Part shown: positions 8,459 to 37,750 of the stretch, one piece after another
Layout of the letters: each line of letters starts with the position of its first letter
How positions within the stretch are numbered: the stretch's first letter is position 1
DNA from: a phage
Length of the DNA stretch: 64,000 nt
Sequence record: PZ386973.1
Strand: one strand, 5' to 3'
Program-made: the position numbers and the translations under genes
Notes under the pieces: generated by a model
What the model saw: only the letters and a program-made list of their open reading frames with translations
Database searches by the model: none
Told to the model about the DNA's origin: nothing

Positions 8459-10789
8459 ATGAGCCATCGTATTGAAAAAGTAATTAAACGTGACGGTACT
8501 GTAGAAGACTTTGCTCCTGAAAAAATCAATGGTTGGGCAGAGTATGGTTGCAAAACAGTTGATGTAAGTTGGTCAGCCATTACTATGGCTGCTCAAAAAA
8601 CTCTGCCTAAAGGGGTTGTAGATTCCGACACTCTGATGGACGCATTAATTAAAGCTGCTGAAAGTCTTATCAAAGATAACCCAGCATACGACGTGCCGGC
8701 AAAGGAATTACGTCTTGCGCAAATGCGTAAACGCCTCTATGATTCCTTCGAACCGCCTTCTCTGCGCTTCTTCCATGACCATATGGTTAGCGTAGGTGCA
8801 TGGGAAGACATGAGTGCATGGATTACCGATGAGCAATTTGAAGCTCTGAATCAGGTTATCGACCATGATCGTGATCGTCTTTTTACTAGTGGTGGACTGA
8901 AGCAGTTCTTTGATAAGTATTCCCGTCGTAATATAGCCACTGGTGAAATTTATGAAACCCCGCAATTTGCCTACATGGGTATGGCAATGGCGATGCTATC
9001 TCAACCTAACTGGACAATTCTAGATGCAATCGACCTCTACAACGCAATGTCGCTCCACAAAATCAACGTTCCTACGCCGCCACTGGTTGGTCTGCGCTCT
9101 AGTGACCGCGGATTTGCTAGTTGCTGCCTCGTGGATTCCACTGACACATTGGATTCAATCGACACCGCCGAGCACATCGTCTTCAAAATGGTCGCAGCCA
9201 GAGCGGGAATCGGGTATCATCTTGAAAGCCGATCAATTGCTGATCCGGTGCGAAATGGGGCATTCCCGCATTCCGGAAAACTGCCATATTATCGACACAT
9301 TGATCGATCAGTAAAAGCGAACACTCAGCAAACCCGTGGTGGTTCTGCTACTGTATCTTACCCGTACTTCGATCCTGAAATCATTCAGTTGATGCAGGTT
9401 AAGCAACAACGTGCTACAGACGAGAATAAAATCGACAAGATGGATTATTCTCTGAGCTTCAATAATCTTTTGTTAAAACGTTATCTGAAAAACGAAGATA
9501 TTACGCTAATGTCGTACTTCTATGCCCCAGAAGTTCATGAAGCGTTTTATAGTGATGACGAGGCTAAATTTGAAGAAATCTATGTGGCAGCGGAGAAACG
9601 TGTGGCATCTCTTACAAAGATCGACCACGAAGGAAAAACAGTTCCAGCAGCTCCTAAAGTCTCTGCAAAAGAAATCCTAGATACCTGGCTGCGTATCCGA
9701 ATGGAAACAGGACGTATGTATGCTCATCACATTGGGGAATCTAATCGTCATGGTAACTTCCTTGATCCGATCCGTATGACAAACCTTTGTGTTGAAATTA
9801 CTCAGCCTACACGCCCGTTCCACCATATCACAGAACTGTATAAGACAAAAGAGCAGCTTGATCAAATGAAGCCAGAGGATATTGGTGAAGTATCTCTGTG
9901 TAACTTAGGCGGTGTTGTACTTGGACGCATGGAATCTCTGGCTGAGTGGGAAAAGACTTGCTATATTCTTCTGAAATTCGTTGATACCATCATTGAAATT
10001 CAGGATTATCCATTCCCAACTATGGAATATACGGCTAAGAAACGTCGTAACGTTGGTATTGGTCTGATGAACGCAGCAGGTGCAATGGCAGCGGAAGGTT
10101 TGGCTTATGAAGGCGTTGAAGCGCGTAACTGGATTCATCGTGAAGCTGAAAAACTGTCCTACTTCCTGCATAAAGCCTCTGTACGCCTAGCCAAAGAGCA
10201 AGGTGCATGTGAATGGTTTGACCGTACTAAACCGTCTAAAGGAATACTGGTAATCGACACGTACAAGAAAACTGTTGATGAACTGGTATCAGTAGGTCTA
10301 GAAATGGATTGGGAATCTCTACGTGCAGATATTCTGAAATATGGTATGCGTAACTCTGTTCTGACTGCTCAGATGCCTGGAGAAAGTTCTTCTGTACTGT
10401 TGGGTGTTACTAACTCTATCGAACCGCCTCGTAAGATTGTATCTATCAAGGGTAGTGCGGTGAATAAAGTAATTGCAATTGCTCCAGGTGCAACCGATTG
10501 GGAAACGTTAATGAGCTATAAACTGGCTTATGATGTAGATCGTATCGAGTGGATCAAATGGGTAGCAACTATGCAGAAATTCTTCAGTCAGTCTATCAGT
10601 ACGAATATGTACTATGACTACACCAAGTTTGAGAATGAAATCATTCCTGGCCCAGTAGTAGTTCGTGATTTCATGACTGCTGTTAAGTATGGGTGGAAAA
10701 CTTGGTATTATGCTAACTTCAACACTGCAAATGGTGGAGGTGCTGGAGAAGAAGCAGCCGGTTGTGCATCCGGTGGTTGTACTATTTAA
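8459..10789 (+). CDS. nrdA: ribonucleotide reductase large subunit (class Ia)
   Basis: ATP-cone-like N-terminus (VIKRDGTVEDF), CNLG active-site region, C-terminal Cys pair; ATG 8459 with AAGGA upstream. Confidence 0.88.
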   Translation: MSHRIEKVIKRDGTVEDFAPEKINGWAEYGCKTVDVSWSAITMAAQKTLPKGVVDSDTLMDALIKAAESLIKDNPAYDVPAKELRLAQMRKRLYDSFEPPSLRFFHDHMVSVGAWEDMSAWITDEQFEALNQVIDHDRDRLFTSGGLKQFFDKYSRRNIATGEIYETPQFAYMGMAMAMLSQPNWTILDAIDLYNAMSLHKINVPTPPLVGLRSSDRGFASCCLVDSTDTLDSIDTAEHIVFKMVAARAGIGYHLESRSIADPVRNGAFPHSGKLPYYRHIDRSVKANTQQTRGGSATVSYPYFDPEIIQLMQVKQQRATDENKIDKMDYSLSFNNLLLKRYLKNEDITLMSYFYAPEVHEAFYSDDEAKFEEIYVAAEKRVASLTKIDHEGKTVPAAPKVSAKEILDTWLRIRMETGRMYAHHIGESNRHGNFLDPIRMTNLCVEITQPTRPFHHITELYKTKEQLDQMKPEDIGEVSLCNLGGVVLGRMESLAEWEKTCYILLKFVDTIIEIQDYPFPTMEYTAKKRRNVGIGLMNAAGAMAAEGLAYEGVEARNWIHREAEKLSYFLHKASVRLAKEQGACEWFDRTKPSKGILVIDTYKKTVDELVSVGLEMDWESLRADILKYGMRNSVLTAQMPGESSSVLLGVTNSIEPPRKIVSIKGSAVNKVIAIAPGATDWETLMSYKLAYDVDRIEWIKWVATMQKFFSQSISTNMYYDYTKFENEIIPGPVVVRDFMTAVKYGWKTWYYANFNTANGGGAGEEAAGCASGGCTI

Positions 10790-20568: not shown

Positions 20569-20801
20569 ATATTCATAAATTAGAGAACAGCGAGCCGATT
20601 ACGCTGAGTGCAGAATCCCAACCGGAGCGCATTGAATAGAGTCGGTGGGTTAGTTGTAAAACTAGTACACAGGGGGCGGCAATCCCGGTTAGTGGCTAGA
20701 ACGTGTAAAATGGGGCGTCTGAAACCTCTCCCTTAAACTCTTCTCTAATCTATAAATAGTGGGGTGTGGAAATCACTTATGTAGTAACACTGCCGTCCTA
20801 A

Positions 20802-20888
20802 GTTAATTGGTAGACTTCTGCACGCGGAGATTATATCTCCAGATGCGGAAAGTGCAGGTTCGAATCCTGCGGTCGGTAAGAACTGGAT
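20802..20888 (+). tRNA. tRNA-like element (isotype unresolved)
   Basis: GGTTCGAATCC T-loop; acceptor GCCGTCC/GGTCGGT has one mismatch; anticodon arm not resolved. Confidence 0.35.
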
Positions 20889-21489: not shown

Positions 21490-22437
21490 ATGTTTGCTAC
21501 TAAAAATATGAAAGAACTGACTTCTGAGCAGAAAGTAATTCGTACTATTAAACGTTGGGGTATTGGTGCTGTAGTTGGTTTAGCAGGTTTAATCCTAGCT
21601 TTTAATTCATATACTATTGTTTCTGATGGTACGGTTAAAACCCAAACATTCCTGGGTAAAGTAGACCCTAATCCAGTATTGCCAGGTTTCCATCTTGTAA
21701 ACCCGTTTGCATCTTTCGATACTTTTAGTACAAAAGATATTGCTGTAAAATTAGATAAACTTCAGGTTCCTAGTCAGGATAAGTTTAAATCCACTGTTGA
21801 CCTGACTGTTATGTTGCAGTTTGATGGTTCTAAGGCACCTATTAACCGTATTAATGCGGGTACTCAGGATCAGGCACTAGACAAGTATGTAACTGAAAAA
21901 TTACTATCTACTATTCGTGAGTTTGGTAAGTCTGTACCTAAAGCACAAGATTTGTTTGATGCTAAAATTCAGGCTCAATTGCAAACTGCAATTCAACAGG
22001 AAGTTGAAGAGTATGCACGCCCATATGGTTACACAGTTAAGCAGGTGTTCCTTCAGGATATTACTTTGCCACCGGTAATCATGGAACAGGTACAGAATAC
22101 CAAAGTTCGTGAAGAGCAAGTTAATGCTGCGAAAGCTGAACTGGCTCGTGTTGAACAGGAAGCACAGCAAAAAGTTAAACAAGCAGAAGCAGATCGTGAA
22201 GCTCGCAACAACCAAGCTATTGCTAATGAACGTGACGCAGATGCTAAACTGTACGCAGCTAAGAAAGAAGCTGAAGCTAACGCCGCATTGCAACGTACCA
22301 TTACTCCTGAGATGATTCGCTGGAAGCAACTGGAAGTTGAAATGATTCGTGCTCAGAAATACCAAGGTGGTGTACCACAGACGGTAGTTGGTACTGGTTA
22401 TGATGGCCAGATGATTATGGATATGCGTAACAAGTAA
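21490..22437 (+). CDS. SPFH/band-7 (prohibitin-like) membrane protein
   Basis: N-terminal TM helix, central SPFH-like region, Ala/Glu/Gln-rich coiled coil. Confidence 0.65.
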   Translation: MFATKNMKELTSEQKVIRTIKRWGIGAVVGLAGLILAFNSYTIVSDGTVKTQTFLGKVDPNPVLPGFHLVNPFASFDTFSTKDIAVKLDKLQVPSQDKFKSTVDLTVMLQFDGSKAPINRINAGTQDQALDKYVTEKLLSTIREFGKSVPKAQDLFDAKIQAQLQTAIQQEVEEYARPYGYTVKQVFLQDITLPPVIMEQVQNTKVREEQVNAAKAELARVEQEAQQKVKQAEADREARNNQAIANERDADAKLYAAKKEAEANAALQRTITPEMIRWKQLEVEMIRAQKYQGGVPQTVVGTGYDGQMIMDMRNK

Positions 22438-22514
22438 TAGTTACACGTAATCTTCGAACCAAGCCTGCGTTTCCCTCGAGAGCGCGGGCTTTTCTGTATT
22501 TAAGGCAAAAGAAA

Positions 22515-22549
22515 AAGCCCCTTACCTTTCGGCAGGGGCTTTTGTTTTT
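22515..22549. terminator. bidirectional terminator
   Basis: GCCCCTTACCTTTCGGCAGGGGC flanked by A-run and T-run between convergent genes. Confidence 0.6.
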
Positions 22550-22756
22550 GGTTTAGAACCACACTCTCGGTATACAGCAACCACCCATACGGGAGGCCAA
22601 TCTTGACTGAAAATCTACTCTAGGGGGCAGGATAAGAGTAGGCTTAAAGGCAAACGGATTGAACGCCGGTATTTGCGTAAACATTGCTGGAGAGCAACAA
22701 CGTGCTACAGGCATTGGGCAGCACGAAACAGATTTTCTGCAACACATAATTCCTCC

Positions 22757-23173
22757 TTAGGAGTTATTACCGCTATTTTGAGCTTTTGCAATTTGGCTTT
22801 GGCAGAAGCTATTAAACTTACCCATAAGTGATACAAGCTGCCTCCCATCCTCTGTCTTTGCGAAGTCTTCGAAAAGGGCTAGTACTGCCTGTCCTTCCGC
22901 AGAAACCTGCGGTTGTTGGGTTTGCTGCTGAACTTGCTGCTGAGGCACCTGTTGCTGCATTTGTTGAGGCATTTGCGACTGCCCGCTCATTTGCTGCATC
23001 ATTTGCATAGGACTTACACTTCCAGGGTTTTGCTGGAGTTGTTGCTGCATCTGTTGCGCTTCTGCTAAACGCTGTTGCAATTGTTGTAAGTAGGGGTTAT
23101 CCAGACCCGGAATGGGCTGCTGGGAGCCCATACTTTGATTAAGTCCGTTATTTACAAAACCATATTTACTCAT
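22757..23173 (-). CDS. Gln-rich low-complexity protein
   Basis: Track ORF; GGGGAGGAG RBS; QQLQQ repeats. Confidence 0.5.
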   Translation of the reverse strand: MSKYGFVNNGLNQSMGSQQPIPGLDNPYLQQLQQRLAEAQQMQQQLQQNPGSVSPMQMMQQMSGQSQMPQQMQQQVPQQQVQQQTQQPQVSAEGQAVLALFEDFAKTEDGRQLVSLMGKFNSFCQSQIAKAQNSGNNS

Positions 23174-23194
23174 AATGGGCTCCTCCCCTTAATA

Positions 23195-24181
23195 TTAAGC
23201 CGGCAGTTTAGCCTGCAGACCAGCCAGAGTCTGAGTGATCGCACCAAGACTTACAGCGATTTGATTAATTACCTGACCATTAGCACCGTTACCCGCAGCG
23301 ATTGCCTCACGTAGGCGACATGCATCTAACTCATCCTGAATACGCGCAGTAGTTACACCAGCGATCGCAGTCTGAAGTTCACAGCAACATTCAGAGATCT
23401 GACGTTCCAGAGAATTCTGGTTAGCACACATCTGAGCCTGAACAGCGGCAAACTGGTTATTAGTTTGTAAAGTCTGCTGGAAAGCGATCTGTGCAGAATC
23501 AAACTTATCTTGTGCACGAGCTATCTGGTTAGCTGCGAAAGATTGATCAATCTGGCGAGAAAGATCGAACTGACCCTGAATAACGTTGCGAGTTTCCTGG
23601 CAGATCTGATTAGACAGATTAGCACCTGTACCATAGATCGTAGTTAGTACAGACTGAGTATCACGGCTCTGGTTTTGGGATGTCTGGCTAAAACCATTGT
23701 TAACTGCGCTTAAAACAGCTCCAGTACCCTGGTTAGCTTCTGTACGAGTAGTGTTAATAGCTGCTAGAATACTAGCGGTATCTTGGTTCTGAAGTACTGC
23801 ATCAACTGCGGTACCATCACCAACTACACCACGTCCACCGAATCCACCGAAACCACCGAATCCGCCTGTTAATAGAGCACCGATTAGGATAGCTCCGAAT
23901 AGTCCCATACCTTCACCACCGAAAGCACCTGCGTTTGCTGGGTAACCACCCAGTAGGCCAGGGAGGCCACTAGTAAATACGTTTACTGGTTCTTGCATTT
24001 TATGTTTTCCATATTTATGACAATGTTCATCATCGTCATCTTCTTCATCATCGTGTTCACGATGCTTTTCTTCGTAGGCTCTGACCTTCTCCCACTTTTT
24101 CTTATCTGATTCCTCGTGACGGTGCAGTTCTGCTGCAACGCTAGCGACGGTCTCAGGACTCTTAGCTACTTCTTCTGTCAT
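23195..24181 (-). CDS. acidic, Gly-zipper membrane protein, Q/N/S/T-rich
   Basis: ATG at 24181 after AGGAGG; DDEEDDDDEH stretch; GLFGAILIGALLTGGFGGFGGFGG segment. Confidence 0.5.
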   Translation of the reverse strand: MTEEVAKSPETVASVAAELHRHEESDKKKWEKVRAYEEKHREHDDEEDDDDEHCHKYGKHKMQEPVNVFTSGLPGLLGGYPANAGAFGGEGMGLFGAILIGALLTGGFGGFGGFGGRGVVGDGTAVDAVLQNQDTASILAAINTTRTEANQGTGAVLSAVNNGFSQTSQNQSRDTQSVLTTIYGTGANLSNQICQETRNVIQGQFDLSRQIDQSFAANQIARAQDKFDSAQIAFQQTLQTNNQFAAVQAQMCANQNSLERQISECCCELQTAIAGVTTARIQDELDACRLREAIAAGNGANGQVINQIAVSLGAITQTLAGLQAKLPA

Positions 24182-24243
24182 TTTTTGACACCTCCTAGTA
24201 TATAGAAAATGTGTGTCTCTTTGATCACTCATCCATAACATAT

Positions 24244-24272
24244 ACTTTACACTACCCCAGCGAAAATGTCAA
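24244..24272 (-). promoter_or_regulatory. minus-strand promoter (TTGACA-N17-TAAAGT)
   Basis: Different hexamer type from the plus-strand early promoter family. Confidence 0.4.
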
Positions 24273-24388
24273 GGGGTCTTTAAAAATTGCCCCCGGATTT
24301 TTAGTGGGGTCACAAATTTTGGTCCTCACCACTTATATGCTACCCTTAAGTGCCCTATGATTTTCCTCTAAAAAGTTAAAAAATTTGA

Positions 24389-24417
24389 TTGCTTGAATGC
24401 TAAATTCTCTGTATAAT
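24389..24417 (+). promoter_or_regulatory. early promoter module
   Basis: TTGCTT-N17-TATAAT. Confidence 0.55.
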
Positions 24418-24447
24418 GTATCTATAAATTTGAGAGAGGAACCAAAT

Positions 24448-24966
24448 ATGAATGTTGACGAGCTAACACAGCACCTCTTATCTAGAGGATTTGATACAGA
24501 TAAATATCATTGCTGGTTAAGTCCGGAAGGATGGCTAACAGTCCCGTTGTATGATTTCTCTGGGATGTTGAGGGGCTATCAGACGTATAATCCTTCTGCT
24601 CCAAAAGGTCATGGTAAGTGCCCCTTTGAGGCTAAATATTTTACCTGCTCTACTACACAGTGTGTATGGGGGCTAGAAACTCTCAATGGAGATGAAAAAG
24701 TAGTATTGATCGCTGAATCTGTATTTAAGGCAGTTGCGTTACACAACGCTGGTTATCCAGCCCTGGCAATGTTGGGTTCTTCTCCAGGAAAAGCGTTATT
24801 AAAGCAACTGAAATTATTACCTTTTAAATTGGTAGCTGTCGGAGATAATGATCCTGCGGGTGAAAAATTTGCTAGAAAATTAAACGGCTTTGTTTCTCCC
24901 GTAGATGTGGATGAGATGTCTACCGAAAACTTGAAAAATTTTCTTGCTATGAAGCTAAATTTCTAA
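24448..24966 (+). CDS. Toprim-domain protein
   Basis: LIAESVFKAVAL...VAVGDNDPAGEKFA (E plus DxD Toprim signature); ATG 24448 after the promoter module. Confidence 0.5.
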   Translation: MNVDELTQHLLSRGFDTDKYHCWLSPEGWLTVPLYDFSGMLRGYQTYNPSAPKGHGKCPFEAKYFTCSTTQCVWGLETLNGDEKVVLIAESVFKAVALHNAGYPALAMLGSSPGKALLKQLKLLPFKLVAVGDNDPAGEKFARKLNGFVSPVDVDEMSTENLKNFLAMKLNF

Positions 24967-25087: not shown

Positions 25088-25162
25088 GGTTCTCAAGCTC
25101 ATATGGTATGAGCACCCGGCTCATAACCGGAAGGTACGTAGGTTCGAATCCTCGGGGAGCCA
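25088..25162 (+). tRNA. tRNA with CAT anticodon (Met or Ile2)
   Basis: Acceptor GGTTCTC/GGGAGCC with G-U pairs, D-stem GCTC/GAGC, loop CTCATAA; T-stem pairing weak. Confidence 0.55.
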
Positions 25163-30570: not shown

Positions 30571-30684
30571 GATACATCAATGGCTCAAAGTGTAACGGTG
30601 CTATTTGATGCTCTTGGAAAGACTTTCCCGACAGGCGTTCGGGGGTAAGCTTCTGAGGCTAGAATAGAAGAGTTTCTGAGAGCC

Positions 30685-30804
30685 GCCACAATTGAAAATT
30701 CGTACTCGTCTTGAGCTGCGTGCAATAGGAGATAACTTGATTAGTATTCTAGAACATGCTAATTGAGGATGGTTTCGCTAACCCTGCGAGTTTTCAATTG
30801 TGGC
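30685..30804 (+). ncRNA. candidate structured RNA closed by a perfect 14-bp long-range stem
   Basis: GCCACAATTGAAAA (30685-30698) is the exact reverse complement of TTTTCAATTGTGGC (30791-30804). Confidence 0.35.
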
Positions 30805-30873
30805 TATATCATAATTGGTTAATGATCCTGATTGTGAATCAGGCCTATGTGGATTCGAATTCCACTAGCCACC
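30800..30873 (+). tRNA. tRNA-His (anticodon GTG)
   Basis: Acceptor GTGGCTA/TAGCCAC, anticodon stem CCTGA/TCAGG, loop TTGTGAA, C73. Confidence 0.7.
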
Positions 30874-30901
30874 CCAAATTAACTTAAATAGGAAATAAAA
30901 T

Positions 30902-31099
30902 ATGGCTGATTTCTGCAAACAATGCTCTATTGATATGTGGGGCAGAGATACTGGTGATCTTTCTGGTTTGATTACAGAAGCCGAAGTTAAAGAAGGTTAT
31001 GGTGCAGTTGTGATTTGCGAAGGATGCGGAGTTATTCGAGTGGATCATGAAGGCAAACGTTTAGAAGAGCAGGAAAATTTAGGAGAAACAAATGAGTAA
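30902..31099 (+). CDS. small Cys-rich protein
   Basis: CKQC...CEGCG. Confidence 0.45.
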   Translation: MADFCKQCSIDMWGRDTGDLSGLITEAEVKEGYGAVVICEGCGVIRVDHEGKRLEEQENLGETNE

Positions 31100-31328
31100 T
31101 GCCTTAATTAGTGAAATTATGTTAACACGTCTTGCAGAATTACAAACTCTTCGAGATGAATCTCAGAATAACTTAGCCTACCATAAACAGATGGTAGATA
31201 CTCTTACTACTCGTATTGAAACTTACGAGCGCGATATTGCAGCATTACAAGCCCTTTTCTCTGTGTCAGCACCCGATACGTTAGAACAGCCTCCTGTGTC
31301 TCAGCCGGTAGAAACAGCATCTAGTTAA
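31092..31328 (+). CDS. hypothetical protein
   Basis: Track ORF. Confidence 0.45.
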   Translation: MSNALISEIMLTRLAELQTLRDESQNNLAYHKQMVDTLTTRIETYERDIAALQALFSVSAPDTLEQPPVSQPVETASS

Positions 31329-31337
31329 TAGCATTCT

Positions 31338-31410
31338 TGGAGTGTAGATCAATTGGCAGATCGTCGGCCTCTGACTCCGAAGGTTCCTGGTTCGATCCCA
31401 GGCACTCCAG
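31338..31410 (+). tRNA. tRNA-Gln (anticodon CTG, tentative)
   Basis: Acceptor TGGAGTG/CACTCCA, T-arm CCTGG-TTCGATC-CCAGG, loop CTCTGAC. Confidence 0.6.
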
Positions 31411-31419
31411 CCAAACAAT

Positions 31420-31492
31420 TGGAGAGTAGTGTAACGGTTAGCACAACGGCCTTTGACTCCGTTAATGGTAGGTTCGATTCCTCCTTCTCCAG
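31420..31492 (+). tRNA. tRNA-Gln (anticodon TTG)
   Basis: Acceptor TGGAGAG/TTCTCCA, D-stem GTGT/GCAC, loop CTTTGAC. Confidence 0.6.
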
Positions 31493-31503
31493 CCAAATAA
31501 TAG

Positions 31504-31576
31504 GCGGTTAAGCACACGGGTTGTGTCGCAGGCCTTCCAAGCCTCGCTGAGTAGGGTTCGATTCCCTCTAGCCGCT
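31504..31576 (+). tRNA. tRNA-Gly (anticodon TCC)
   Basis: Acceptor GCGGTTA/TAGCCGC, loop CTTCCAA. Confidence 0.6.
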
Positions 31577-31595
31577 CCAACTTTAAGGAAACGTT

Positions 31596-31847
31596 ATGCA
31601 CGTTTTTGAGTTTCGTAATAAAAGTACCGATAAACGAGTTATTGTTATTGGAGAAACATACCGAGCATACGAACAAACTGACGGCTCTGTTATCCTGAAT
31701 GATGAGAAAGGAGGTTTTAGCTTTTATCCAGAAGAACCTTATGAAGAGTTTCGAAAACAATTTAACCTAGACTGGAGAAAGCATTTAAACACTGTTGCTT
31801 CATCTGTAGTATTGCCAACTACCAGTACTGTACCCCCTAATGGCTGA
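31596..31847 (+). CDS. hypothetical protein
   Basis: Track ORF; the minus-strand track ORF 31281-31760 across the tRNAs was rejected. Confidence 0.45.
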   Translation: MHVFEFRNKSTDKRVIVIGETYRAYEQTDGSVILNDEKGGFSFYPEEPYEEFRKQFNLDWRKHLNTVASSVVLPTTSTVPPNG

Positions 31848-32004
31848 CAACCTAAAAGTAAAGATCGATAAACAAAAGAAACGTGTAGAAGTAGAGATTG
31901 GTGAAGAACGTGTAGCCTTCACCTTTGAATTTCTTCAGCAGTTGGCAATGACAGTTATGACTGATAAGTCTCCTGTTATTGAAAAAGAAATCCCGTTGAA
32001 ATAA
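31840..32004 (+). CDS. hypothetical small protein
   Basis: ATG 31840 overlapping the upstream stop; 54 codons. Confidence 0.4.
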   Translation: MADNLKVKIDKQKKRVEVEIGEERVAFTFEFLQQLAMTVMTDKSPVIEKEIPLK

Positions 32005-32012
32005 CGGGTTTT

Positions 32013-32084
32013 GCTCCTAAAGCATTGCTGGCGATGCAGTTGCCTTGTAAGCATCTGAACCGGGTTCGATTCCTGGTGGGAGCA
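32013..32084 (+). tRNA. tRNA-Thr (anticodon TGT)
   Basis: Acceptor GCTCCTA/TGGGAGC, D-stem GCAT/ATGC, loop CTTGTAA. Confidence 0.65.
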
Positions 32085-32102
32085 CCAAATTTAAAAATTC
32101 AT

Positions 32103-32131
32103 TTGCCTTCTCTCTTATTTATTGTTATAAT
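32103..32131 (+). promoter_or_regulatory. early promoter module
   Basis: TTGCCT-N17-TATAAT. Confidence 0.55.
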
Positions 32132-32161
32132 ATTTATATAAATTAATGAGAGGGAAACCAA

Positions 32162-32455
32162 ATGAAACGTTATCTTTCTGTATTATTCCAAGCTGGTGGT
32201 CAACGCTATACTTACGAATTTCCTAGCTCTTGGAAAATAAAAGAAGGTGATCAAGTAGTAGTGTTAACACCACGTGAAGGGTATAAAGTAGTAACGGTTA
32301 AACAAGTATTTCCAAAAGATCATGAACCGGCTAAAGGCATTCGCTATAAGATGATTCATGGTGTGGTTCGTCAAGTACCACGAGCGGAAGTAGAAATCAG
32401 AGTAGATAAAGATGGTAAACTTAAGTATACTTCTTGCTTAGATGAGTTACTATAA
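32162..32455 (+). CDS. hypothetical protein
   Basis: Track ORF. Confidence 0.45.
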   Translation: MKRYLSVLFQAGGQRYTYEFPSSWKIKEGDQVVVLTPREGYKVVTVKQVFPKDHEPAKGIRYKMIHGVVRQVPRAEVEIRVDKDGKLKYTSCLDELL

Positions 32456-32661
32456 TGAGGATTACTTTCACAGAAAAGATCATGAGTAATGGTGTTATGA
32501 TCATTACCGCATGGGATGGTAATCAGTGGTGTAGTGTTTCAGGTATTAAGCCCGAAGAACAAACACTAGAAAATATCTCAAAGATTAAGCGAAGAATGGC
32601 AGAACGTGCACGACTTCCAGGTGCGCCTAGAAATGGTAAACGTTCTGCAATTAAATGTTAA
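32455..32661 (+). CDS. hypothetical protein
   Basis: Track ORF, ATGA overlap. Confidence 0.4.
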   Translation: MRITFTEKIMSNGVMIITAWDGNQWCSVSGIKPEEQTLENISKIKRRMAERARLPGAPRNGKRSAIKC

Positions 32662-32662
32662 T

Positions 32663-32736
32663 GCTTCGGTAGCTTAGCGATCTAAAGCACTCGGCTGATA
32701 ACCGAGAGATCGGGGGTTTAAATCCCTCCCGGAGTA
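32663..32736 (+). tRNA. tRNA-Ile (anticodon GAT)
   Basis: Acceptor GCTTCGG/CCGGAGT, anticodon stem CTCGG/CCGAG, loop CTGATAA; unusual T-loop TTTAAAT. Confidence 0.6.
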
Positions 32737-32835
32737 CCAAATTTAGGAATTAAGACTATGCGTCCAGGAAAGTTTAAAAAAGCTAATTGGTCTAAAGAGT
32801 ATAAAGAATACTTACTTAGTCTAATAAAACATAAT

Positions 32836-32908
32836 AGTTAGTTGGCAGAGTGGTTATGCACCTCCTTCATACGGAGCGACTACAGTGGTTCAAATCCACT
32901 ACTAACTA
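32836..32908 (+). tRNA. tRNA with CAT anticodon (Met or Ile2)
   Basis: Acceptor AGTTAGT/ACTAACT, loop TTCATAC. Confidence 0.6.
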
Positions 32909-32934
32909 CCAAATTCTAACATCGGGGAGATCTA

Positions 32935-33303
32935 ATGAAAGCATATCAAAATCTTAAATCTGGCGTAATTAACCTTGTTCATGAAAATCAGATTATTCAG
33001 CTATACTCCGACAACGGTGAACTTAAACAGAAAGTTCTAGTTGAAGATCTAGAAGGTATCACCCCACAATTCGATCCTGAAGCCTTCCGTGAAGTCAAAG
33101 TGGAAGTCGCCCCTCAAATCGAAGGTGGTCAGCACCTAAATGTCAATGTGTTAAGCCGTGATCAGCTTTTGGATGCGCAGAAACATCCTGAAAAATATCC
33201 TCAGTTGACCATCCGTGTCTCTGGCTACGCTGTTCGATTTAACGCACTGACTCGTGAACAACAGAACGACGTTATTAGTCGTACATTTACTCAGGCGATG
33301 TAA
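32935..33303 (+). CDS. grcA: autonomous glycyl-radical cofactor (GrcA/YfiD-like)
   Basis: C-terminal [27 protein letters not shown] matches the glycyl-radical signature RVSGYAV. Confidence 0.7.
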
Positions 33304-33384
33304 TGGGGTTTGGATACGATTTCTCCGAGCTACATGAGGTAGTCGAGCAAACTCCATTTATCTCCCAAGTTTTAGGAGAAATGT

Positions 33385-33690
33385 GTGGATCGAGCATTAA
33401 GACGCCATCACCGGCAACGTGTGAAGAACAACCGTAAGAAGTATTGGACAGTCTTTCCACATGAAGAAAGCCCTAAGCGGTTAGGTATTATCACTACTAC
33501 TCCTTGCATCTGTTCTTGTTGGATGTGTGGGAACCCTCGCAAATATTATAAGAATAGTAAAGCAGGTATGAAAACCTCGGAGATCAGGAAAATGGAAGCG
33601 ATGATTGCGGACATCACCTATACTGGTGGTATTTCAAATGATGAATTTGATGGCTTCGTAGCGTTCGAAGATGAACGCCCCGATCTGTAA
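33385..33690 (+). CDS. hypothetical basic, Cys-containing protein
   Basis: Track ORF. Confidence 0.45.
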   Translation: MDRALRRHHRQRVKNNRKKYWTVFPHEESPKRLGIITTTPCICSCWMCGNPRKYYKNSKAGMKTSEIRKMEAMIADITYTGGISNDEFDGFVAFEDERPDL

Positions 33691-33699
33691 TTAATAACA

Positions 33700-33736
33700 A
33701 ACCCCAGCTATTGAATAAGTAGTCTGGGGTTTTTCT
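33700..33736 (+). terminator. rho-independent terminator
   Basis: CCCCAG...CTGGGG stem followed by TTTTT. Confidence 0.6.
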
Positions 33737-33811
33737 GTATAAAGGTACATAATATATGTATAATAAAATTCATCCACATTAGGTTAATTTAAAAGACTTA
33801 ATGGAGGTAAT

Positions 33812-34159
33812 ATGAGCCGTACTTATCGTAAACAATCTGGTGATCAGTGGTGGAAGTCTAAAGAACAATTCTCTCAAGAATATTCTTTCCTCAAAGAAAA
33901 TGGCTACTGGATTCGTGTTATTTATGCCAAATCCTGGGACGACATCAAAAAAGAAATGAAGGAAGCAACCATTCGTAATGAGAAAAAGGATGGTTATAAC
34001 TGGAATTCTATTAGTAAGAATGTTAAGTGGCATTCTAATAAAATGGTTCGTCAAGGGAATCGTCAAGAACTCCACCGCGTGATGAAAGATCCAGAAAATT
34101 ATGATTATAATCGCGATCATGACATGCGTAAACGTGGGTTATGGTGGTGCTATGACTAA
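33812..34159 (+). CDS. hypothetical protein
   Basis: Track ORF after GGAGG. Confidence 0.45.
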   Translation: MSRTYRKQSGDQWWKSKEQFSQEYSFLKENGYWIRVIYAKSWDDIKKEMKEATIRNEKKDGYNWNSISKNVKWHSNKMVRQGNRQELHRVMKDPENYDYNRDHDMRKRGLWWCYD

Positions 34160-34176
34160 ATTCTGAAATAATTCAT

Positions 34177-34205
34177 TTGCTAAACCTCTCTTTTCTTGTT
34201 ATAAT
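34177..34205 (+). promoter_or_regulatory. early promoter module
   Basis: TTGCTA-N17-TATAAT. Confidence 0.55.
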
Positions 34206-34235
34206 ATGTTTATAAATTGATGAGAGAGGTTTGAA

Positions 34236-34517
34236 ATGAAAACTCGTCTAGACTGTGCTGTTCATGTTCTTGAACATGATGTTGCGGGAACCTGTATGTC
34301 TTACCACGAAGCAGGTCGTTTAATTAAAGAACGTGTGGCAGATGTGTGCGGATTGAAGATTACTGCTGAGGAAGCTGATGATCTTTTAGGTCAAGCACTG
34401 GAGAAAACCGAAATGTTTCTCTGTGATTCTTGTTCTTGGTGGTGTGAAGCCCACGAACGTTCTTTCAACGATTATGATGTATGTCGTGATTGTAGTGGGG
34501 AGGATGAAGATGAATAA
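34236..34517 (+). CDS. Cys-rich hypothetical protein
   Basis: Track ORF; CDSCSWWC...CRDC. Confidence 0.45.
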   Translation: MKTRLDCAVHVLEHDVAGTCMSYHEAGRLIKERVADVCGLKITAEEADDLLGQALEKTEMFLCDSCSWWCEAHERSFNDYDVCRDCSGEDEDE

Positions 34518-34809
34518 GTTTATTATTGCACTGATGATCTCCGCAGTTAGTTTCGGTTCTCTGGCGTCTACCAAAGTTTCTATGAAAAATGGTAATGTTA
34601 AAGTCCAACAGAACGGCATTATTACCGAGTATGGTAAAGTTCGTGATGTTAAGGAACGTAATGGTAAAGTAGAAATATATACTAATAAAAACTTCTCTAC
34701 TCCAGCCGTTACTATTAGCAAACGCGGTGAAATAACCACTCAACGTACTAATAGCTCCAGTTCTTTTACTTGTCGTTATGATTGCGACTTTGAAGGTGAA
34801 GATGAATAA
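34510..34809 (+). CDS. secreted small protein
   Basis: ATG 34510; signal-peptide-like MNKFIIALMISAVSFGSLAS. Confidence 0.45.
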   Translation: MNKFIIALMISAVSFGSLASTKVSMKNGNVKVQQNGIITEYGKVRDVKERNGKVEIYTNKNFSTPAVTISKRGEITTQRTNSSSSFTCRYDCDFEGEDE

Positions 34810-35221
34810 TTTAGACCCTAGAATTAAATTTGCAATTACAGAAATCCAAGATCAAATTGATGAGGACTTCACCGTTTGGTCAAGGTCTGGTAATGGAGAA
34901 TATTGCCAGCTTTATAGCCTGAAAATGGGTATCTCAATTGAGCTTAATATCAACTCTGAAGGTAGAGTAGAGGCCCAACCCATGTTCAGTGTTCCAGGCT
35001 TCTCTGGATTTGTTGCAGGTATAAAATTGTGTCTACCAAATAACCATCTTCATCGAGTTATTTGTCAGTTAGAGACTATTAAGCATTTCTTGCCAGAAGG
35101 TAATATTAATGACTACTACCATGAAGTTGTAGCAGCTCATATGATGAAAGAAAGTAAACGTCGGAGAGAAGAACGTGAAAAGACTAAACATCAACAGCAC
35201 AGTGCAGATTCCAGCAACTAA
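34802..35221 (+). CDS. hypothetical protein
   Basis: In-frame ATG 34802. Confidence 0.45.
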   Translation: MNNLDPRIKFAITEIQDQIDEDFTVWSRSGNGEYCQLYSLKMGISIELNINSEGRVEAQPMFSVPGFSGFVAGIKLCLPNNHLHRVICQLETIKHFLPEGNINDYYHEVVAAHMMKESKRRREEREKTKHQQHSADSSN

Positions 35222-35471
35222 GGATGTTCTAACATTCCTACGTAGTGAGAATACCCAGTTTTGGCATGACTATATTCAGGAAAATAAAAATAATCCAGAT
35301 GTAGTTGCTTTTGCCAAAAAACGTATTGGTGAATATAAAGATCCAGAGATTAAAGATGGGATGATTACCATGCAATTATGGATAGCTATGAAAACCTTTG
35401 GACCCACTATGAGTCTAGGATTTACTCCACTGTTTACTAATATTCTAGTTAATGAAAAGGATCTGAAATGA
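35175..35471 (+). CDS. hypothetical protein
   Basis: Track ORF. Confidence 0.4.
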   Translation: MKRLNINSTVQIPATKDVLTFLRSENTQFWHDYIQENKNNPDVVAFAKKRIGEYKDPEIKDGMITMQLWIAMKTFGPTMSLGFTPLFTNILVNEKDLK

Positions 35472-35752
35472 TTATCTCTCCATTTGCTCTTTGGTTCGTC
35501 ATTGGATCTGTGGTTGCTATTTACAGCTTGATTGATGATCTGTATATTTCTAAGAATAAAGATGTAATATTATACGTTATACATAAAACTCGACCGTTAG
35601 ATCTGCCACCTCTTGATGATAAAACATTACTCAGATGTGCTAGATCTATGATATTTATTGTGGATATTCTTCTAGGCCCAACATCTGTGTTTTTCTTTTA
35701 TAGAAAAACTCGTAATATGAAAAAATTTAAAGCTGAAATGCAGAATACCTAA
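35468..35752 (+). CDS. hypothetical membrane protein
   Basis: Track ORF with hydrophobic N-terminus. Confidence 0.45.
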   Translation: MIISPFALWFVIGSVVAIYSLIDDLYISKNKDVILYVIHKTRPLDLPPLDDKTLLRCARSMIFIVDILLGPTSVFFFYRKTRNMKKFKAEMQNT

Positions 35753-35862
35753 AGAACTCGCGTAGGACCGAGTTGCGTCACCTGCAACTGTTACGGATAA
35801 GGGAGTCGTGCCCCTTAGTGCGGTAAGTGGTGAGGTGGCTGCTAGCCCTAACTGGAGATAAT

Positions 35863-36207
35863 ATGACTATATTACTAATTCTTGTTACAACTTGGTTTTT
35901 AATTGGTGCTGGATATGCGATAGCTATTATTAGACATTTGGACGAATACTCTGCTGAATGGTTTGTTAAGTATCTACGTATTGATGATCAAGAGCAGAAG
36001 TTTAAAGATGAAAAGCAGAAAAAAGCAGTAAATAATATGACAGCCAAAGAATGCTTGTTCTACATGCGTATTGTAGGGTTCTTTGGACTATTAGTTGCTG
36101 GCCCAATTGGTTCTACCATTGCCCCATATAAAGAAACAGTTGCTGACATCAAATTGTGGAGAAATGCAGGGGTACTACGCAAAGCTAGAGAAACTAATAT
36201 TACATAA
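35863..36207 (+). CDS. hypothetical membrane protein
   Basis: ATG 35863 after GGAGA; two predicted TM helices. Confidence 0.45.
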   Translation: MTILLILVTTWFLIGAGYAIAIIRHLDEYSAEWFVKYLRIDDQEQKFKDEKQKKAVNNMTAKECLFYMRIVGFFGLLVAGPIGSTIAPYKETVADIKLWRNAGVLRKARETNIT

Positions 36208-36250
36208 GATTGATGCTAAATCAACTTACTAGCAAAAGCAAATAATGACA

Positions 36251-36288
36251 AAGCCCAGCCTGCACTTTTGCGACTGGGCTATTTTTAT
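36251..36288 (+). terminator. rho-independent terminator
   Basis: AGCCCAG...CTGGGCT stem followed by ATTTTT. Confidence 0.55.
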
Positions 36289-36301
36289 AATAAAATTTTA
36301 G

Positions 36302-36330
36302 TTGCTTAGATGCCCAAACTTTTGTATAAT
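36302..36330 (+). promoter_or_regulatory. early promoter module
   Basis: TTGCTT-N17-TATAAT. Confidence 0.55.
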
Positions 36331-36361
36331 ATGTTTATAGATTGAGGCAAGAGGATTAAAT

Positions 36362-37466: not shown

Positions 37467-37750
37467 AACCAGAGCCATCTCATGAGTTAAAGCAAGCTCA
37501 TGTAGACTGGCCTAAAGGACTTCAACCTTGTAGCTTTAACTTTAGGTTTGAAAAGAAATTAGCTACAAATGGAGAAGATGGCGTAGTAGTTGTTATACCA
37601 TACAAAGATTGGAATGCAAAAGCAAAATGTGAGGAAGCAGTTTACTCTTACATTTCACGACTGACTGGTATGGTCTGCTTCTATCGTCAAGATTTACAAG
37701 AAAAACGTTGCTTAGTTTACTATCCACCCATTACAAATAGGAAAGATTAA
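37397..37750 (+). CDS. putative lipoprotein
   Basis: Lipobox-like LAAAITITGC near the N-terminus. Confidence 0.45.
   Translation: MFNWKLGILLAAAITITGCAEEIKPEPSHELKQAHVDWPKGLQPCSFNFRFEKKLATNGEDGVVVVIPYKDWNAKAKCEEAVYSYISRLTGMVCFYRQDLQEKRCLVYYPPITNRKD

What the first reader, a model, noticed from the sequence alone, without database searches (positions are those of the whole stretch)
22757..24272. Minus-strand pair: acidic Gly-zipper membrane protein plus Gln-rich protein inside the plus-strand tRNA island
The 329-aa protein has a DDEEDDDDEH stretch, a GxxxG-rich hydrophobic segment and a long Q/N/S/T-rich tail. The 138-aa partner is dominated by QQLQQ repeats. They run opposite to all neighbours from a TTGACA-type promoter (24244-24272), between bidirectional terminators. 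Such low-complexity proteins are unusual for a phage early region.
Basis: seen in the sequence. Interest (0 to 1): 0.6.

Follow-up and report, generated by a model that had tools for sequence, protein, structure and literature searches.

The report
Dispensable T5 membrane-protein operon, function unknown
This is the long-annotated but never characterised T5.077–T5.079 operon of a T5-like phage: three genes, not two, that the phage does not need in the laboratory. Its main protein belongs to a very large family of phage proteins with no known function.

Summary
The window is a T5-like phage, and the region is the orthologue of T5 promoter P12–T5.077–T5.078–T5.079–terminator ter1.

- **Genes.** There are three minus-strand genes. 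A has 328 aa: an acidic/His N-domain, a Gly-zipper hydrophobic segment and a long helical Q/N/A-rich domain. B has 138 aa with a poly-Q linker.
- **Transcription signals.** Terminators exist only at the 3' end.
- **Selection.** A and B are under purifying selection (dN/dS about 0.15).
- **Dispensability.** The cassette is precisely deleted in relatives such as Bas33 and Bas29. It is truncated in the viable T5Mos and scored 'Not Fit' in a published knock-down screen.
- **Family.** A belongs to a huge uncharacterised phage family (phrog_8119, phrog_16490, phrog_9288; at least 7,900 clusters). Members occur in T5-like, T1-like, crAss-like and Firmicutes phages. A CCC motif is the only invariant feature. 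In several lineages the gene sits in a terminator-bounded cassette beside tail-fibre or lysis genes.
- **Known relatives.** There is no Pfam, PDB, PADLOC or fold match.

Best reading: a moron-like accessory cassette acting at the cytoplasmic membrane in phage–phage or phage–defence conflict. The specific mechanism is inferred. The locus is already known; its function is not.

The parts
24244..24272 (-). Promoter P12 (TTGACA, 17 nt, TAAAGT)
   Evidence: One search finds it as the only sigma-70-like site in the region. It is annotated as P12 in T5, BF23 and phage 5. It is nearly identical in the distant T5-like contig L052, and a -10/5'UTR remnant survives in Bas33, which lacks the genes.
23195..24181 (-). 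Gene A, the T5.077 orthologue, 328 aa: N-terminal helix, acidic/His cluster, Gly-zipper hydrophobic segment, long helical Q/N/A-rich domain with CCC
   Evidence: AGGAGG ribosome-binding site at 24196..24191. phrog_8119 E=2.4e-203. dN/dS 0.14-0.17. All-helical AlphaFold2 models.
24047..24148 (-). A, aa 12-45: amphipathic N-terminal helix, specific to the T5 lineage
   Evidence: pLDDT 93-97. Other family members have only a short N-terminus, with the hydrophobic core starting at a median of residue 33.
24023..24052 (-). A, aa 44-53: DDEEDDDDEH acidic/His cluster
   Evidence: In relatives it expands into His-rich runs such as HHYHHHHHEHYE...DEHEHH.
23822..23956 (-). A, aa 76-120: Gly-zipper hydrophobic segment (GMGLFGAILIGALLTGGFGGFGGFGG)
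   Evidence: Six GxxxG motifs. G110, F111 and G112 are invariant or nearly so. Mean Kyte-Doolittle score of the best 17-mer is 1.75 over 281 family members.
23210..23779 (-). A, aa 135-324: helical domain (helices 135-165, 174-273, 277-324)
   Evidence: No fold relative in PDB or BFVD.
23381..23389 (-). A, aa 265-267: the CCC motif, hallmark of the family
   Evidence: These are the only invariant columns in a 99-sequence alignment spanning T5-like, crAss-like and Firmicutes-phage members.
22757..23173 (-). Gene B, the T5.078 orthologue, 138 aa: conserved N-terminal helix, variable poly-Q/P linker, conserved C-terminal helical domain
   Evidence: phrog_7894 E=1.1e-79. dN/dS 0.13-0.20. Length varies from 106 to 146 aa among 116 clusters; every one of those 116 on a contig longer than about 28 kb sits on a T5-sized contig or in a named T5-like phage.
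22553..22747 (-).
   Evidence: AAGGAGG ribosome-binding site. Annotated as 'ORF 64aa' or T5.079. An MCC-initiated 60-69 aa ORF follows B in the distant contigs L051, L052 and L053. Synonymous divergence is anomalously low, so coding is not proven by dN/dS.
22507..22539 (-). Rho-independent terminator of the operon (ter1); it also reads as a terminator on the + strand
   Evidence: Hairpin GCCCCTGCC-GAAA-GGTAAGGGGC followed by TTTTTCTTTT. T5 annotates it as an 'efficient bidirectional rho-independent transcription terminator'.
22461..22491 (+). Terminator hairpin of the converging SPFH gene; its loop carries the GCGC of the T5 nick consensus
   Evidence: T5 and BF23 annotate a major single-chain interruption at this place.
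22506..24210 (.). Extent of the cassette that is cleanly absent from Bas33 HildyBeyeler
   Evidence: The blastn junctions fall at window 22505 and 24211. Bas33 and Bas29 have the same flanking genes with a gap of only about 270-290 bp.

Best explanation
**What is shown**
- Window 22507-24272 (-) is an autonomous, moron-like accessory cassette of T5-like phages. It has its own strong sigma-70 promoter (P12), three translationally well-signalled genes, and its own terminator.
- The genes are maintained by selection where present.
- The cassette is not needed for growth on laboratory E. coli and has been lost repeatedly.

**What is inferred about the complex**
- Protein A inserts its Gly-zipper segment into the cytoplasmic membrane.
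- A oligomerises through its long helical domain. Its invariant cysteines (CCC plus one or more nearby Cys) hold the helices together, either through a bound metal or through disulfides.
- B (helix, flexible poly-Q spacer, small helical domain) and the Cys-rich peptide C lack signal peptides and are its partners.

**What is inferred about the role (weakest step)**
- The complex acts at the envelope in a conflict function that matters only in some hosts or in mixed infections.
- The most likely roles are blocking genome entry of competing phages (superinfection exclusion), or neutralising a membrane-acting abortive-infection defence.
- This would fit its position at the edge of the T5 tRNA-rich 'anti-defence island', next to rad.

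**Confidence.** About 0.5 for 'conditionally useful membrane-associated accessory cassette'. About 0.25 for exclusion or anti-defence specifically.
For: **Autonomy**
- Promoter. Terminator.
- Orientation is opposite to all neighbours.
- GC content is 0.467 against 0.393 for the window.
- The promoter is conserved even in T5-like contigs whose protein A is only 43% identical.

**Real genes**
- dN/dS is about 0.15 for A and B.
- All three genes have strong ribosome-binding sites.
- The A-B-C order is kept in the distant contigs L051 and L052, and in a Mu-like-portal phage, L053.

**Dispensable and variable**
- 218 public T5-like records carry the cassette. About 160 others match only the terminator.
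- Bas33 and Bas29 lack it between the same flanking genes, and Bas33 keeps a promoter remnant.
- The T5Mos deletion 30661-38625 removes P12 and the 5' part of T5.077, yet the phage grows (PMC11464382; coordinates).
- T5.077, T5.078 and T5.079 are all 'Not Fit' in CRISPRi-ART (PMC11879866 supplement).

**Membrane-active coiled coil**
- The hydrophobic Gly-zipper core is conserved in 281 relatives.
- The AlphaFold2 models are all-helical.
- CCC is invariant.

**Cassette behaviour elsewhere**
- The family gene lies between terminators after the lateral tail-fibre gene in the T1-like phage Bas09.
- It lies between terminators upstream of the holin/endolysin genes in temperate Firmicutes phages.
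- In another Firmicutes phage it lies between the endolysin and the lysogeny module.

**Conflict-island context**
- The adjacent gene is Rad, an anti-retron protein. The region carries tRNAs that defeat PARIS and retrons.
Against: - There is no direct evidence of expression timing, membrane insertion or interaction among A, B and C.
- Charged residues flanking the hydrophobic segment are too few to fix the topology: 193 of 281 members are tied.
- A mean of 7.9 Cys per protein, in Firmicutes phages too, argues against an exported domain. That leaves a cytoplasmic or virion location open.
- There is no similarity to any known exclusion, defence or anti-defence protein.
- In other phage lineages the family sits in the late tail/lysis region, which could equally mean a role in the virion or in cell exit.
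- In the nine-fragment screen of the phiSP15 tRNA-rich region, only fragments 6, 7 and 8 rescued phages from retrons. Whether any tested fragment carried this operon is not stated in the text I could read.
Confidence: 0.5

Rival explanations
1. Lysis or egress accessory. A is a membrane protein that tunes or completes envelope disruption, for example a regulator of the holin or a membrane-destabilising factor. B and C modulate it.
For: Family members lie next to holin or endolysin genes in Firmicutes phages and next to endolysin, holin and LysB-like genes in crAss-like phages. Accessory lysis genes are typically dispensable in laboratory culture (established knowledge of lambda Rz/Rz1). The Gly/Ala-rich hydrophobic segment resembles signal-anchor-release domains (my own knowledge, not tested).
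Against: In T5-like phages the cassette lies about 15 kb from the Rz-like spanin genes T5.044/045, and T5 is annotated with its own holin as well. In T1-like and eiAU phages it follows the tail-fibre genes rather than lysis genes. Tail genes followed by lysis genes is the default order in siphophages, so the adjacency is weak evidence. No holin or spanin profile matches. C has no lipoprotein signal.
Confidence: 0.15
2. Virion-borne membrane-active protein. A is packaged or tail-associated, and inserts its fusion-peptide-like Gly-zipper into the host membrane during infection. This is what the 'spike protein/glycoprotein' and 'outer capsid protein/viral fiber' labels on crAss-like homologues imply.
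For: The architecture is a Gly-rich hydrophobic segment plus long helices. 'GLFGAI' equals the start of the influenza HA2 fusion peptide (my own knowledge). The family sits after tail-fibre genes in T1-like, eiAU and Firmicutes phages. Its Cys richness and the lack of signal peptides in its partners fit cytoplasmic assembly. crAss-like homologues carry structural labels.
Against: Those labels rest on nothing significant here. Reovirus sigma-1 scores E=7.3 in the PDB profile search, and there are no fold matches. In T5 the genes sit in the early tRNA region behind a sigma-70 promoter. They are dispensable and absent from close relatives with the same virion genes. T5.077 is not among the T5 virion proteins I know of (my own knowledge, not checked).
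Confidence: 0.12
3. Membrane-tethered cytoplasmic scaffold. With an N-out/C-in topology, the helical Cys domain faces the cytoplasm, binds a metal or an Fe-S cluster, and together with B and C organises a cytoplasmic process at the membrane, such as replication, assembly or a block of host cell division.
For: More family members have K/R on the C-terminal flank of the hydrophobic core (67) than on the N-terminal flank (21). N-termini are short and net acidic. Proteins carry 7.9 Cys on average. Partners lack signal peptides (by inspection). The T5-lineage N-domain is rich in His, Asp and Glu.
Against: The T5-lineage N-domain is about 90 residues long and carries 11-14 K/R in the close relatives, which makes it an unlikely translocated tail. 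There is no metal-binding or Fe-S motif match in Pfam or NCBIfam. The idea rests on composition only.
Confidence: 0.13
4. No function: a decaying or selfish remnant whose low-complexity ORFs are tolerated.
For: It is dispensable and frequently lost. It has low-complexity stretches. The C region gives no clear coding signal from dN/dS.
Against: dN/dS is about 0.15 for A and B at dS up to about 1. The operon order, the promoter and the motifs are kept at 37-45% protein identity. The family has thousands of members, and profile-profile homology between lineages has 98.8% probability.
Confidence: 0.05

Closest known systems
T5.077, T5.078 and T5.079 with promoter P12 and terminator ter1 (T5 NC_005859; BF23 AJ604530; Salmonella phage 5 AJ604531)
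   Same: Orthologous. The gene order, the flanking genes (T5.076/rad and T5.080/SPFH), the promoter, the ribosome-binding sites and the terminator are the same, at 89-98% DNA identity.
   Different: Only small differences: A has 328 aa against 321-327, and C has a different last few residues (CIPRVWF against CNKSIWF). None of these records assigns a function.
phrog_16490 and phrog_9288 proteins. Examples: crAss-like 'spike protein/glycoprotein' and 'outer capsid protein/viral fiber' (cr52_1 gp23, cr4_1 gp16); Bas09 bas09_0032 'putative sugar-binding protein'; Edwardsiella phage eiAU gp08.
   Same: The architecture is the same: a Gly-zipper hydrophobic segment, a helical N/Q/A-rich domain and a CCC motif. 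hhalign gives 98.8% probability, E=1e-16. These genes also sit in small cassettes with 1-3 small partner genes.
   Different: They lack the T5-type acidic/His N-domain. Many carry a C-terminal Pro-rich linker plus a Cys-Gly-Cys tail. Their partner genes are unrelated to B (hhalign negative). They lie in late tail/lysis regions. Their product names are not backed by any significant match here.
Phage morons and exclusion genes: lambda bor and lom, HK97 gp15, T4 imm and sp, T5 llp, T1/phi80 cor (from my own knowledge)
   Same: They work alike in layout: a small self-contained transcription unit (promoter, gene or genes, terminator). They have atypical base composition, are dispensable and variably present, encode envelope proteins, and are often placed beside host-recognition genes.
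   Different: There is no sequence or profile similarity. T5 is virulent, so this is not a prophage-expressed moron. No exclusion activity has been shown.
Two-component spanins (lambda Rz/Rz1; T5.044/T5.045)
   Same: A membrane protein with a long helical domain containing Cys, plus a small Pro-rich, Cys-containing peptide. Both are dispensable in ordinary culture.
   Different: C has no signal peptide or lipobox. The cassette is not in the lysis cassette. T5 already encodes Rz-like spanins. The family also occurs in phages of Gram-positive bacteria, which have no outer membrane.
T4 holin T with antiholins RI and RIII (from my own knowledge)
   Same: A trio: a membrane protein with one hydrophobic segment and a large non-membrane domain containing Cys, plus two small modulators.
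   Different: There is no homology. T5 has an annotated holin elsewhere. No lysis phenotype is known.

Membership tests
T5 P12-T5.077-T5.078-T5.079-ter1 operon | Same three ORFs in the same order between the T5.076 (rad) and T5.080 (SPFH) orthologues, on the opposite strand to them | tested here: met
   DNA identity is 89-99% to 218 records.
T5 P12-T5.077-T5.078-T5.079-ter1 operon | Promoter P12 upstream and a rho-independent terminator downstream | tested here: met
   (TTGACA-17-TAAAGT). Hairpin plus T-run at 22539..22507. Annotations.
PHROG phrog_8119 (A) and phrog_7894 (B) | Full-length profile match | tested here: met
   E=2.4e-203 over 1-328 and E=1.1e-79 over 1-138. C matches no PHROG; the authors of PMC11879866 list it as a 'singleton'.
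   Cross-hits between the PHROGs. hhalign 98.8%. Caveat: the composition is biased and the CCC motifs are not in register in the hhalign alignment.
Moron-like autonomous cassette | Own promoter and terminator, and base composition unlike the flanks | tested here: met
   GC is 0.46-0.47 against 0.35-0.40 in the flanks. Part of the GC excess may come from the Gly/Ala/Gln codon content.
Moron-like autonomous cassette | Present or absent among close relatives with clean junctions | tested here: met
   Bas28 and Bas32 carry it. Bas29 and Bas33 lack it. The junctions are mapped.
Two-component spanin (Rz/Rz1 type) | o-spanin: signal peptide with a lipobox Cys | tested here: not met
   C starts MCCRKSVSCCPMP and has no hydrophobic signal region (by inspection).
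Two-component spanin (Rz/Rz1 type) | Profile match to spanin families, and a location in the lysis cassette | tested here: not met
   No Pfam or PHROG spanin hit. T5's own spanins are T5.044/045, about 15 kb away.
Holins and antiholins | Match to a holin or antiholin family | tested here: not met
   no hit.
Known superinfection-exclusion proteins (Imm, Sp, Sie, Cor/Llp types) | Sequence or profile similarity | tested here: not met
   No such PHROG, Pfam or NCBIfam hit. T5's Cor/Llp-type gene is T5.158.
Known superinfection-exclusion proteins (Imm, Sp, Sie, Cor/Llp types) | Blocks entry of other phages when expressed | not testable with these tools
   This needs plating assays.
Known anti-phage defence proteins (PADLOC-DB) | Match to a defence-system model | tested here: not met
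   no family at E<=1 for A, B, C, the SPFH neighbour or two distant homologues.
Anti-defence island genes of T5-like phages | Location within or next to the deletable tRNA-rich region that encodes Rad and protective tRNAs | tested here: met
   The cassette is adjacent to the Rad orthologue 24397-24966. The T5Mos deletion ends inside T5.077.
Anti-defence island genes of T5-like phages | Neutralises a defence system | not testable with these tools
   No published test of these genes was found. The text I could read does not say which tested fragments of the tRNA-rich region carried this operon.
Viral fibre or spike/fusion glycoproteins (labels on crAss-like homologues) | Significant sequence or fold similarity to a solved fibre or fusion protein | tested here: not met
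   PDB profile search: best E=0.2, and reovirus sigma-1 E=7.3. Foldseek against PDB gives best E=4 and against BFVD best E=0.075. The model has low confidence (pLDDT 63.8), so the fold searches are weak tests.

The most novel reading that the evidence does not exclude
The 'CCC' proteins define a very widespread, so far unrecognised class of phage accessory systems. The family has at least 7,900 sequence clusters across Demerecviridae, Drexlerviridae, Crassvirales and gut Firmicutes phages. Under this reading, a Gly-zipper segment inserts into the membrane and a metal- or disulfide-bridged coiled coil sits on it. Lineage-specific small partners complete a system that acts on the cytoplasmic membrane by a mechanism unlike known holins, spanins, exclusion proteins or anti-defence proteins. 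One example would be blocking the membrane channel of incoming phage genomes, or disarming membrane-acting abortive-infection effectors. T5 and the BASEL phage pairs Bas28/Bas29 and Bas32/Bas33 would be ready-made genetic systems to study it.
Probability: 0.3. Interest if true: 0.75.

Novelty: already known. Interest (0 to 1): 0.42.

Why it matters
Its value is as an entry point. T5 is a tractable model phage with viable natural and laboratory deletions of this cassette. Its protein A is homologous to thousands of unannotated proteins in human-gut phages, including crAss-like phages, that carry misleading labels such as 'spike glycoprotein', 'viral fiber', 'sugar-binding protein' or 'cAMP-dependent protein kinase'. 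Finding the function in T5 would annotate a large block of phage dark matter. It could also add a new item to the tRNA-rich anti-defence island of T5-like phages.

Tried and rejected
- **Family libraries.** Pfam, PHROGs, NCBIfam and PADLOC scans of A, B, C and distant homologues gave only unknown-function PHROGs.
- **Neighbour genes.** The neighbour genes of homologues scanned here are also unknown-function PHROGs, DUF7841, or have no match at all. The one exception is an inserted HNH endonuclease.
- **Solved structures.** A PDB profile search found nothing significant. A sequence search with the Firmicutes +1 partner, which I had guessed to be BclA/TNF-like, gave zero hits, so I dropped that guess.
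- **Structure prediction.** Two AlphaFold2 runs gave only long helices (pLDDT 53 and 64). Foldseek against PDB and BFVD was uninformative.
- **Partner homology.** I tested whether T5 protein B is homologous to the Q-rich -1 and -2 neighbours in Firmicutes cassettes. hhalign was negative (probability below 1%), so the resemblance is compositional only.
- **Spanin idea.** Rejected: C has no lipobox, T5 has T5.044/045, and the family occurs in Gram-positive phages.
- **dN/dS for C.** It could not establish coding. Synonymous divergence is anomalously low, and the alternative frames look similar. The RNA fold z-score of -3.6 includes the terminator hairpin and is not decisive. Rfam shows nothing above threshold in the operon.
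- **Expression data.** The only T5-like RNA-seq and proteome set I found is for Bas33, which lacks the cassette.
- **Literature.** A search for T5.077, T5.078 and T5.079 found no paper.
Full report
**What is in the sequence**

On the minus strand between the SPFH/band-7 gene (21490-22437, +) and a 189-aa Toprim gene (24397-24966, +) lie three closely spaced ORFs, not two.

- **A**, 24181..23195, 328 aa.
- **B**, 23173..22757, 138 aa.
- **C**, 22747..22553, 64 aa.

Each ORF has a strong Shine-Dalgarno sequence: AGGAGG, GGAGG and AAGGAGG. Upstream is TTGACA-17-TAAAGT at 24272..24244, the only sigma-70-like site in 22300-24500. Downstream is a GC-rich hairpin followed by TTTTTCTTTT at about 22539..22507. 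Its complement also reads as a terminator on the + strand. Next to it is the terminator hairpin of the converging SPFH gene at 22461-22491. No terminator was found on the promoter side.

All 22 tRNA genes and all neighbouring ORFs are on the + strand.

- DDEEDDDDEH is aa 44-53 of A.
- Six GxxxG motifs lie in aa 75-116.
- The tail of A is rich in Q, A, T and N.
- B is 27.5% Gln.

**What it is**

The window is a T5-like phage (Demerecviridae, Tequintavirus). The 2-kb region is 97-99% identical to many Salmonella and Escherichia phages.

In T5 (NC_005859), BF23 (AJ604530) and Salmonella phage 5 (AJ604531), the same unit is annotated in full. The annotation reads: promoter P12; ORF 321-327 aa (T5.077); ORF 138 aa (T5.078); ORF 64 aa (T5.079); and an 'efficient bidirectional rho-independent transcription terminator'. 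All products are 'hypothetical protein'.

A and B are phrog_8119 and phrog_7894, both of unknown function. C matches nothing. A full-text search found no paper that names T5.077, T5.078 or T5.079.

**Are these real genes?**

Comparisons were made among this window, T5, BF23 and IrmaTschudi.

| Gene | dN/dS | dS |
|---|---|---|
| A | 0.14-0.17 | 0.36-0.56 |
| B | 0.13-0.20 | up to about 1.1 |
| C | 0.23-0.82 | 0.07-0.16 |

A and B show clear purifying selection. The Q-rich part of B is a linker of variable length: 106-146 aa overall among 116 clusters. It lies between a conserved N-terminal helix and a conserved C-terminal domain of about 45 aa (alignment).

C is odd. Its DNA is much more conserved than its neighbours, so dN/dS says nothing about coding. 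However, an ORF of 60-69 aa follows B directly in three distant contigs: L051, L052, and a Mu-like-portal phage, L053. In each it starts with MCC and contains further CC pairs. I take C to be a real small protein. The extra nucleotide-level constraint, or a recent exchange, remains unexplained.

**Dispensable and variably present**

- Of about 380 matching T5-like records, 218 carry the cassette. In the rows shown, the rest match only the 40 bases at the terminator.
- Bas29 SuperGirl and Bas33 HildyBeyeler have the same flanking genes with only about 270-290 bp between them.
- In Bas33 the junctions map to window 22505 and 24211, and a remnant of the P12 -10 region and 5'UTR survives. The cassette was therefore deleted there, not inserted here.
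- Bas26, Bas27, Bas28 and Bas32 carry it.
- The viable laboratory strain T5Mos has the deletion 30661-38625 (PMC11464382). In T5 coordinates this removes P12 and the first 562 nt of T5.077.
- In the CRISPRi-ART knock-down screen, T5.077, T5.078 and T5.079 are all 'Not Fit' and annotated 'unknown function' (PMC11879866 supplement).
- The cassette is also a GC-rich block: 0.467 against 0.393 for the window.
- The promoter sequence is almost unchanged in a T5-like contig whose protein A is only 37% identical by BLAST (about 41% in the alignment).

**A much larger family**

Close homologues of A come from T5-sized contigs. The weakest hits share the same layout: a Gly-zipper hydrophobic segment, an N/Q/A-rich helical region and a CCC motif.

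The size and coherence of the family rest on these results:

- An exhaustive profile search found 715 representatives at E<=1e-3, of which 66 are at E<=1e-10.
- A word-indexed search with a Firmicutes-type profile was saturated: 7,951 of the 8,000 candidates scored at E<=1e-5. None of the 120 best-scoring proteins listed has a Pfam domain, and their only source names are 'hypothetical protein'.
- The members fall into phrog_16490 and phrog_9288, with cross-hits to phrog_8119.
- A comparison of T5-type and Firmicutes-type profiles gives 98.8% probability, E=1e-16, over 203 columns. The two CCC motifs are not aligned with each other there, which suggests internal helical repeats.
- In a 99-sequence alignment, the three Cys are the only invariant columns.

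The genomic contexts are as follows.

| Lineage | Where the family gene sits |
|---|---|
| crAss-like phages | Just after endolysin, holin or LysB-like genes and before virion genes; labelled 'spike protein/glycoprotein' or 'outer capsid protein/viral fiber' |
| T1-like Bas09 and Edwardsiella phage eiAU | Directly after the tail-fibre genes, followed by the same three small genes; in Bas09 bounded by terminators |
| Temperate gut Firmicutes phages | Between tail/retroelement genes and holin-endolysin, in a block of small genes; terminator hairpins bound the block on both sides in one phage (L059) and precede it in another (L057) |
| Other Firmicutes phages | After the endolysin and before the lysogeny genes |

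A DNA-pattern scan of bacterial genomes found 37 loci, mostly in MAGs of Oscillospiraceae, Lachnospiraceae, Erysipelotrichaceae and Bacteroidales.

Conserved neighbours there include a Q/P-rich protein of 112-161 aa (phrog_21718) and a Q-rich protein of about 70 aa (phrog_22984). A CC-containing protein of about 140 aa (phrog_20016) or 112-149 aa (phrog_31654) is also conserved. All are of unknown function. They resemble B and C in composition only; hhalign finds no homology.

**Structure and topology**

Two AlphaFold2 runs give an all-helical protein:

- a confident N-terminal helix at aa 12-45 (pLDDT 93-97);
- a disordered acidic region;
- a low-confidence Gly-zipper segment;
- helices 135-165, 174-273 and 277-324 (pLDDT about 50-84).

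No solved or predicted structure matches.

Across 281 family members:

- The best 17-residue window has a mean Kyte-Doolittle score of 1.75.
- Flanking K/R residues are rare: 0.21 on the N side and 0.39 on the C side.
- The C side has more K/R in 67 members, the N side in 21, and 193 are tied.
- N-termini are short and net acidic. Proteins contain on average 7.9 Cys.

This leans towards N-out/C-in, or towards conditional insertion. But the T5-lineage N-domain has about 90 residues, with 11-14 K/R in the close relatives, and is unlikely to be translocated. The topology is therefore open.

**How it most likely works**

Shown: it is an autonomous cassette, kept under selection, conditionally dispensable, and frequently lost.

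Inferred:

1. A is membrane-active through its Gly-zipper and oligomerises through its helices.
2. The invariant cysteines bridge those helices by a metal or by disulfides.
3. B and C, which lack signal peptides, are its partners.
4. The complex serves a conflict function at the envelope.

Two observations point to step 4. In T5-like phages the cassette lies next to Rad, an anti-retron protein that is the 189-aa Toprim gene at 24397-24966. It also sits at the edge of the deletable tRNA-rich 'anti-defence island'. In other lineages it occupies the classic moron positions next to host-recognition and lysis genes. Superinfection exclusion or neutralisation of a membrane-acting defence are the most economical readings, but nothing tests them here.

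The rivals are a lysis/egress accessory, a virion-borne membrane-inserting protein, and a membrane-tethered cytoplasmic metal-binding scaffold. The spanin idea fails: C has no lipobox, T5 has its own spanins T5.044/045, and the family occurs in Gram-positive phages.

**Comparison with what is known, and verdict**

The locus is a member of the T5.077-079 orthologue group, and all defining features are met. It is not a member of any characterised family. Tests against spanins, holins, exclusion proteins, PADLOC defence proteins and viral fibre or fusion proteins were all negative. In layout it works like a moron.

The locus is already known and annotated, so it is not a discovery in itself.

- the mapped deletion junctions;
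- the selection data;
- the link from T5 to a very large, mislabelled dark-matter family with an invariant CCC motif.

Interest is moderate, about 0.4. It would be higher (about 0.75) if the family proves to be a new class of membrane-acting accessory system, which I rate at about 0.3.

Noticed in passing
window 24397-24966 (+): This 189-aa Toprim protein is the orthologue of T5.076, also known as Rad (ORF75 of phiSP15). Rad is reported to neutralise retrons Ec67, Ec78 and Ec83. T5.076 is 'Semi-Fit' in CRISPRi-ART. Many records label it 'DNA primase'.
   Followed up: partly
window 22553-22747 (-): Gene C has far lower synonymous divergence (dS 0.07-0.16) than the adjacent genes A and B (up to about 1.1). 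This hints at an overlapping RNA-level constraint or a recent recombination. The RNA fold z-score is -3.6, but that fold includes the terminator.
   Followed up: partly
window about 22478-22487, in the loop of the + strand hairpin 22461-22491: The GCGC of the T5 nick consensus lies here. T5 and BF23 annotate a major single-chain interruption at the equivalent place, so the 3' boundary of the cassette coincides with a genome nick site.
   Followed up: no
window 20792-20878 (+) and 25088-25162 (+): Rfam tRNA matches (42 and 40 bits, above the gathering score) that ARAGORN did not list. The second corresponds in position to the tRNA-Ile2/Met(CAU) annotated in T5 and phage 5. The first lies in the region annotated as stable 'RNAX' in T5.
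   Followed up: no
window 21490-22437 (+): This SPFH/band-7 membrane protein (the T5.080 orthologue; Band_7 E=2e-17) converges on the cassette. It is kept in phages that lack the cassette, so the two are independent.
   Followed up: partly
L053 (61.7-kb contig with a Mu-like portal and a terminase), 6001-7600: A complete A-B-C cassette sits in a phage that is not T5-like, divergent from the terminase operon. Its protein A is 61% identical to the window's over only 47% of the length, which suggests the cassette moves between phage types as a mosaic.
   Followed up: partly
L011 (crAss-like cr4_1), 7782-8759 and 9215-9781: The family gene and a neighbour contain in-frame stop codons when read with the standard bacterial code. 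This is consistent with the stop-codon recoding known in some crAss-like phages.
   Followed up: no
Firmicutes-type loci L014-L050, L057, L059: Some family members begin with LSxADIAAVTG(N/G). From memory, this resembles double-glycine leader peptides. A Cys/His peptidase-like gene (phrog_3754, no Pfam hit) recurs three genes upstream. Proteolytic processing is possible but untested.
   Followed up: no
L012 (cr52_1), L055, L057: Reverse transcriptases of the diversity-generating-retroelement type, and their likely tail-fibre targets, lie within a few kb of the family gene in three unrelated phages.
   Followed up: no
public records of T5-like phages (for example ESCO30, ESCO40, JLBYU40): Several records label an operon gene 'cAMP-dependent protein kinase catalytic subunit'. 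Where the protein can be identified, it is B. This is most likely a spurious poly-Q match. Bas09's family member is labelled 'putative sugar-binding protein' without support here.
   Followed up: partly
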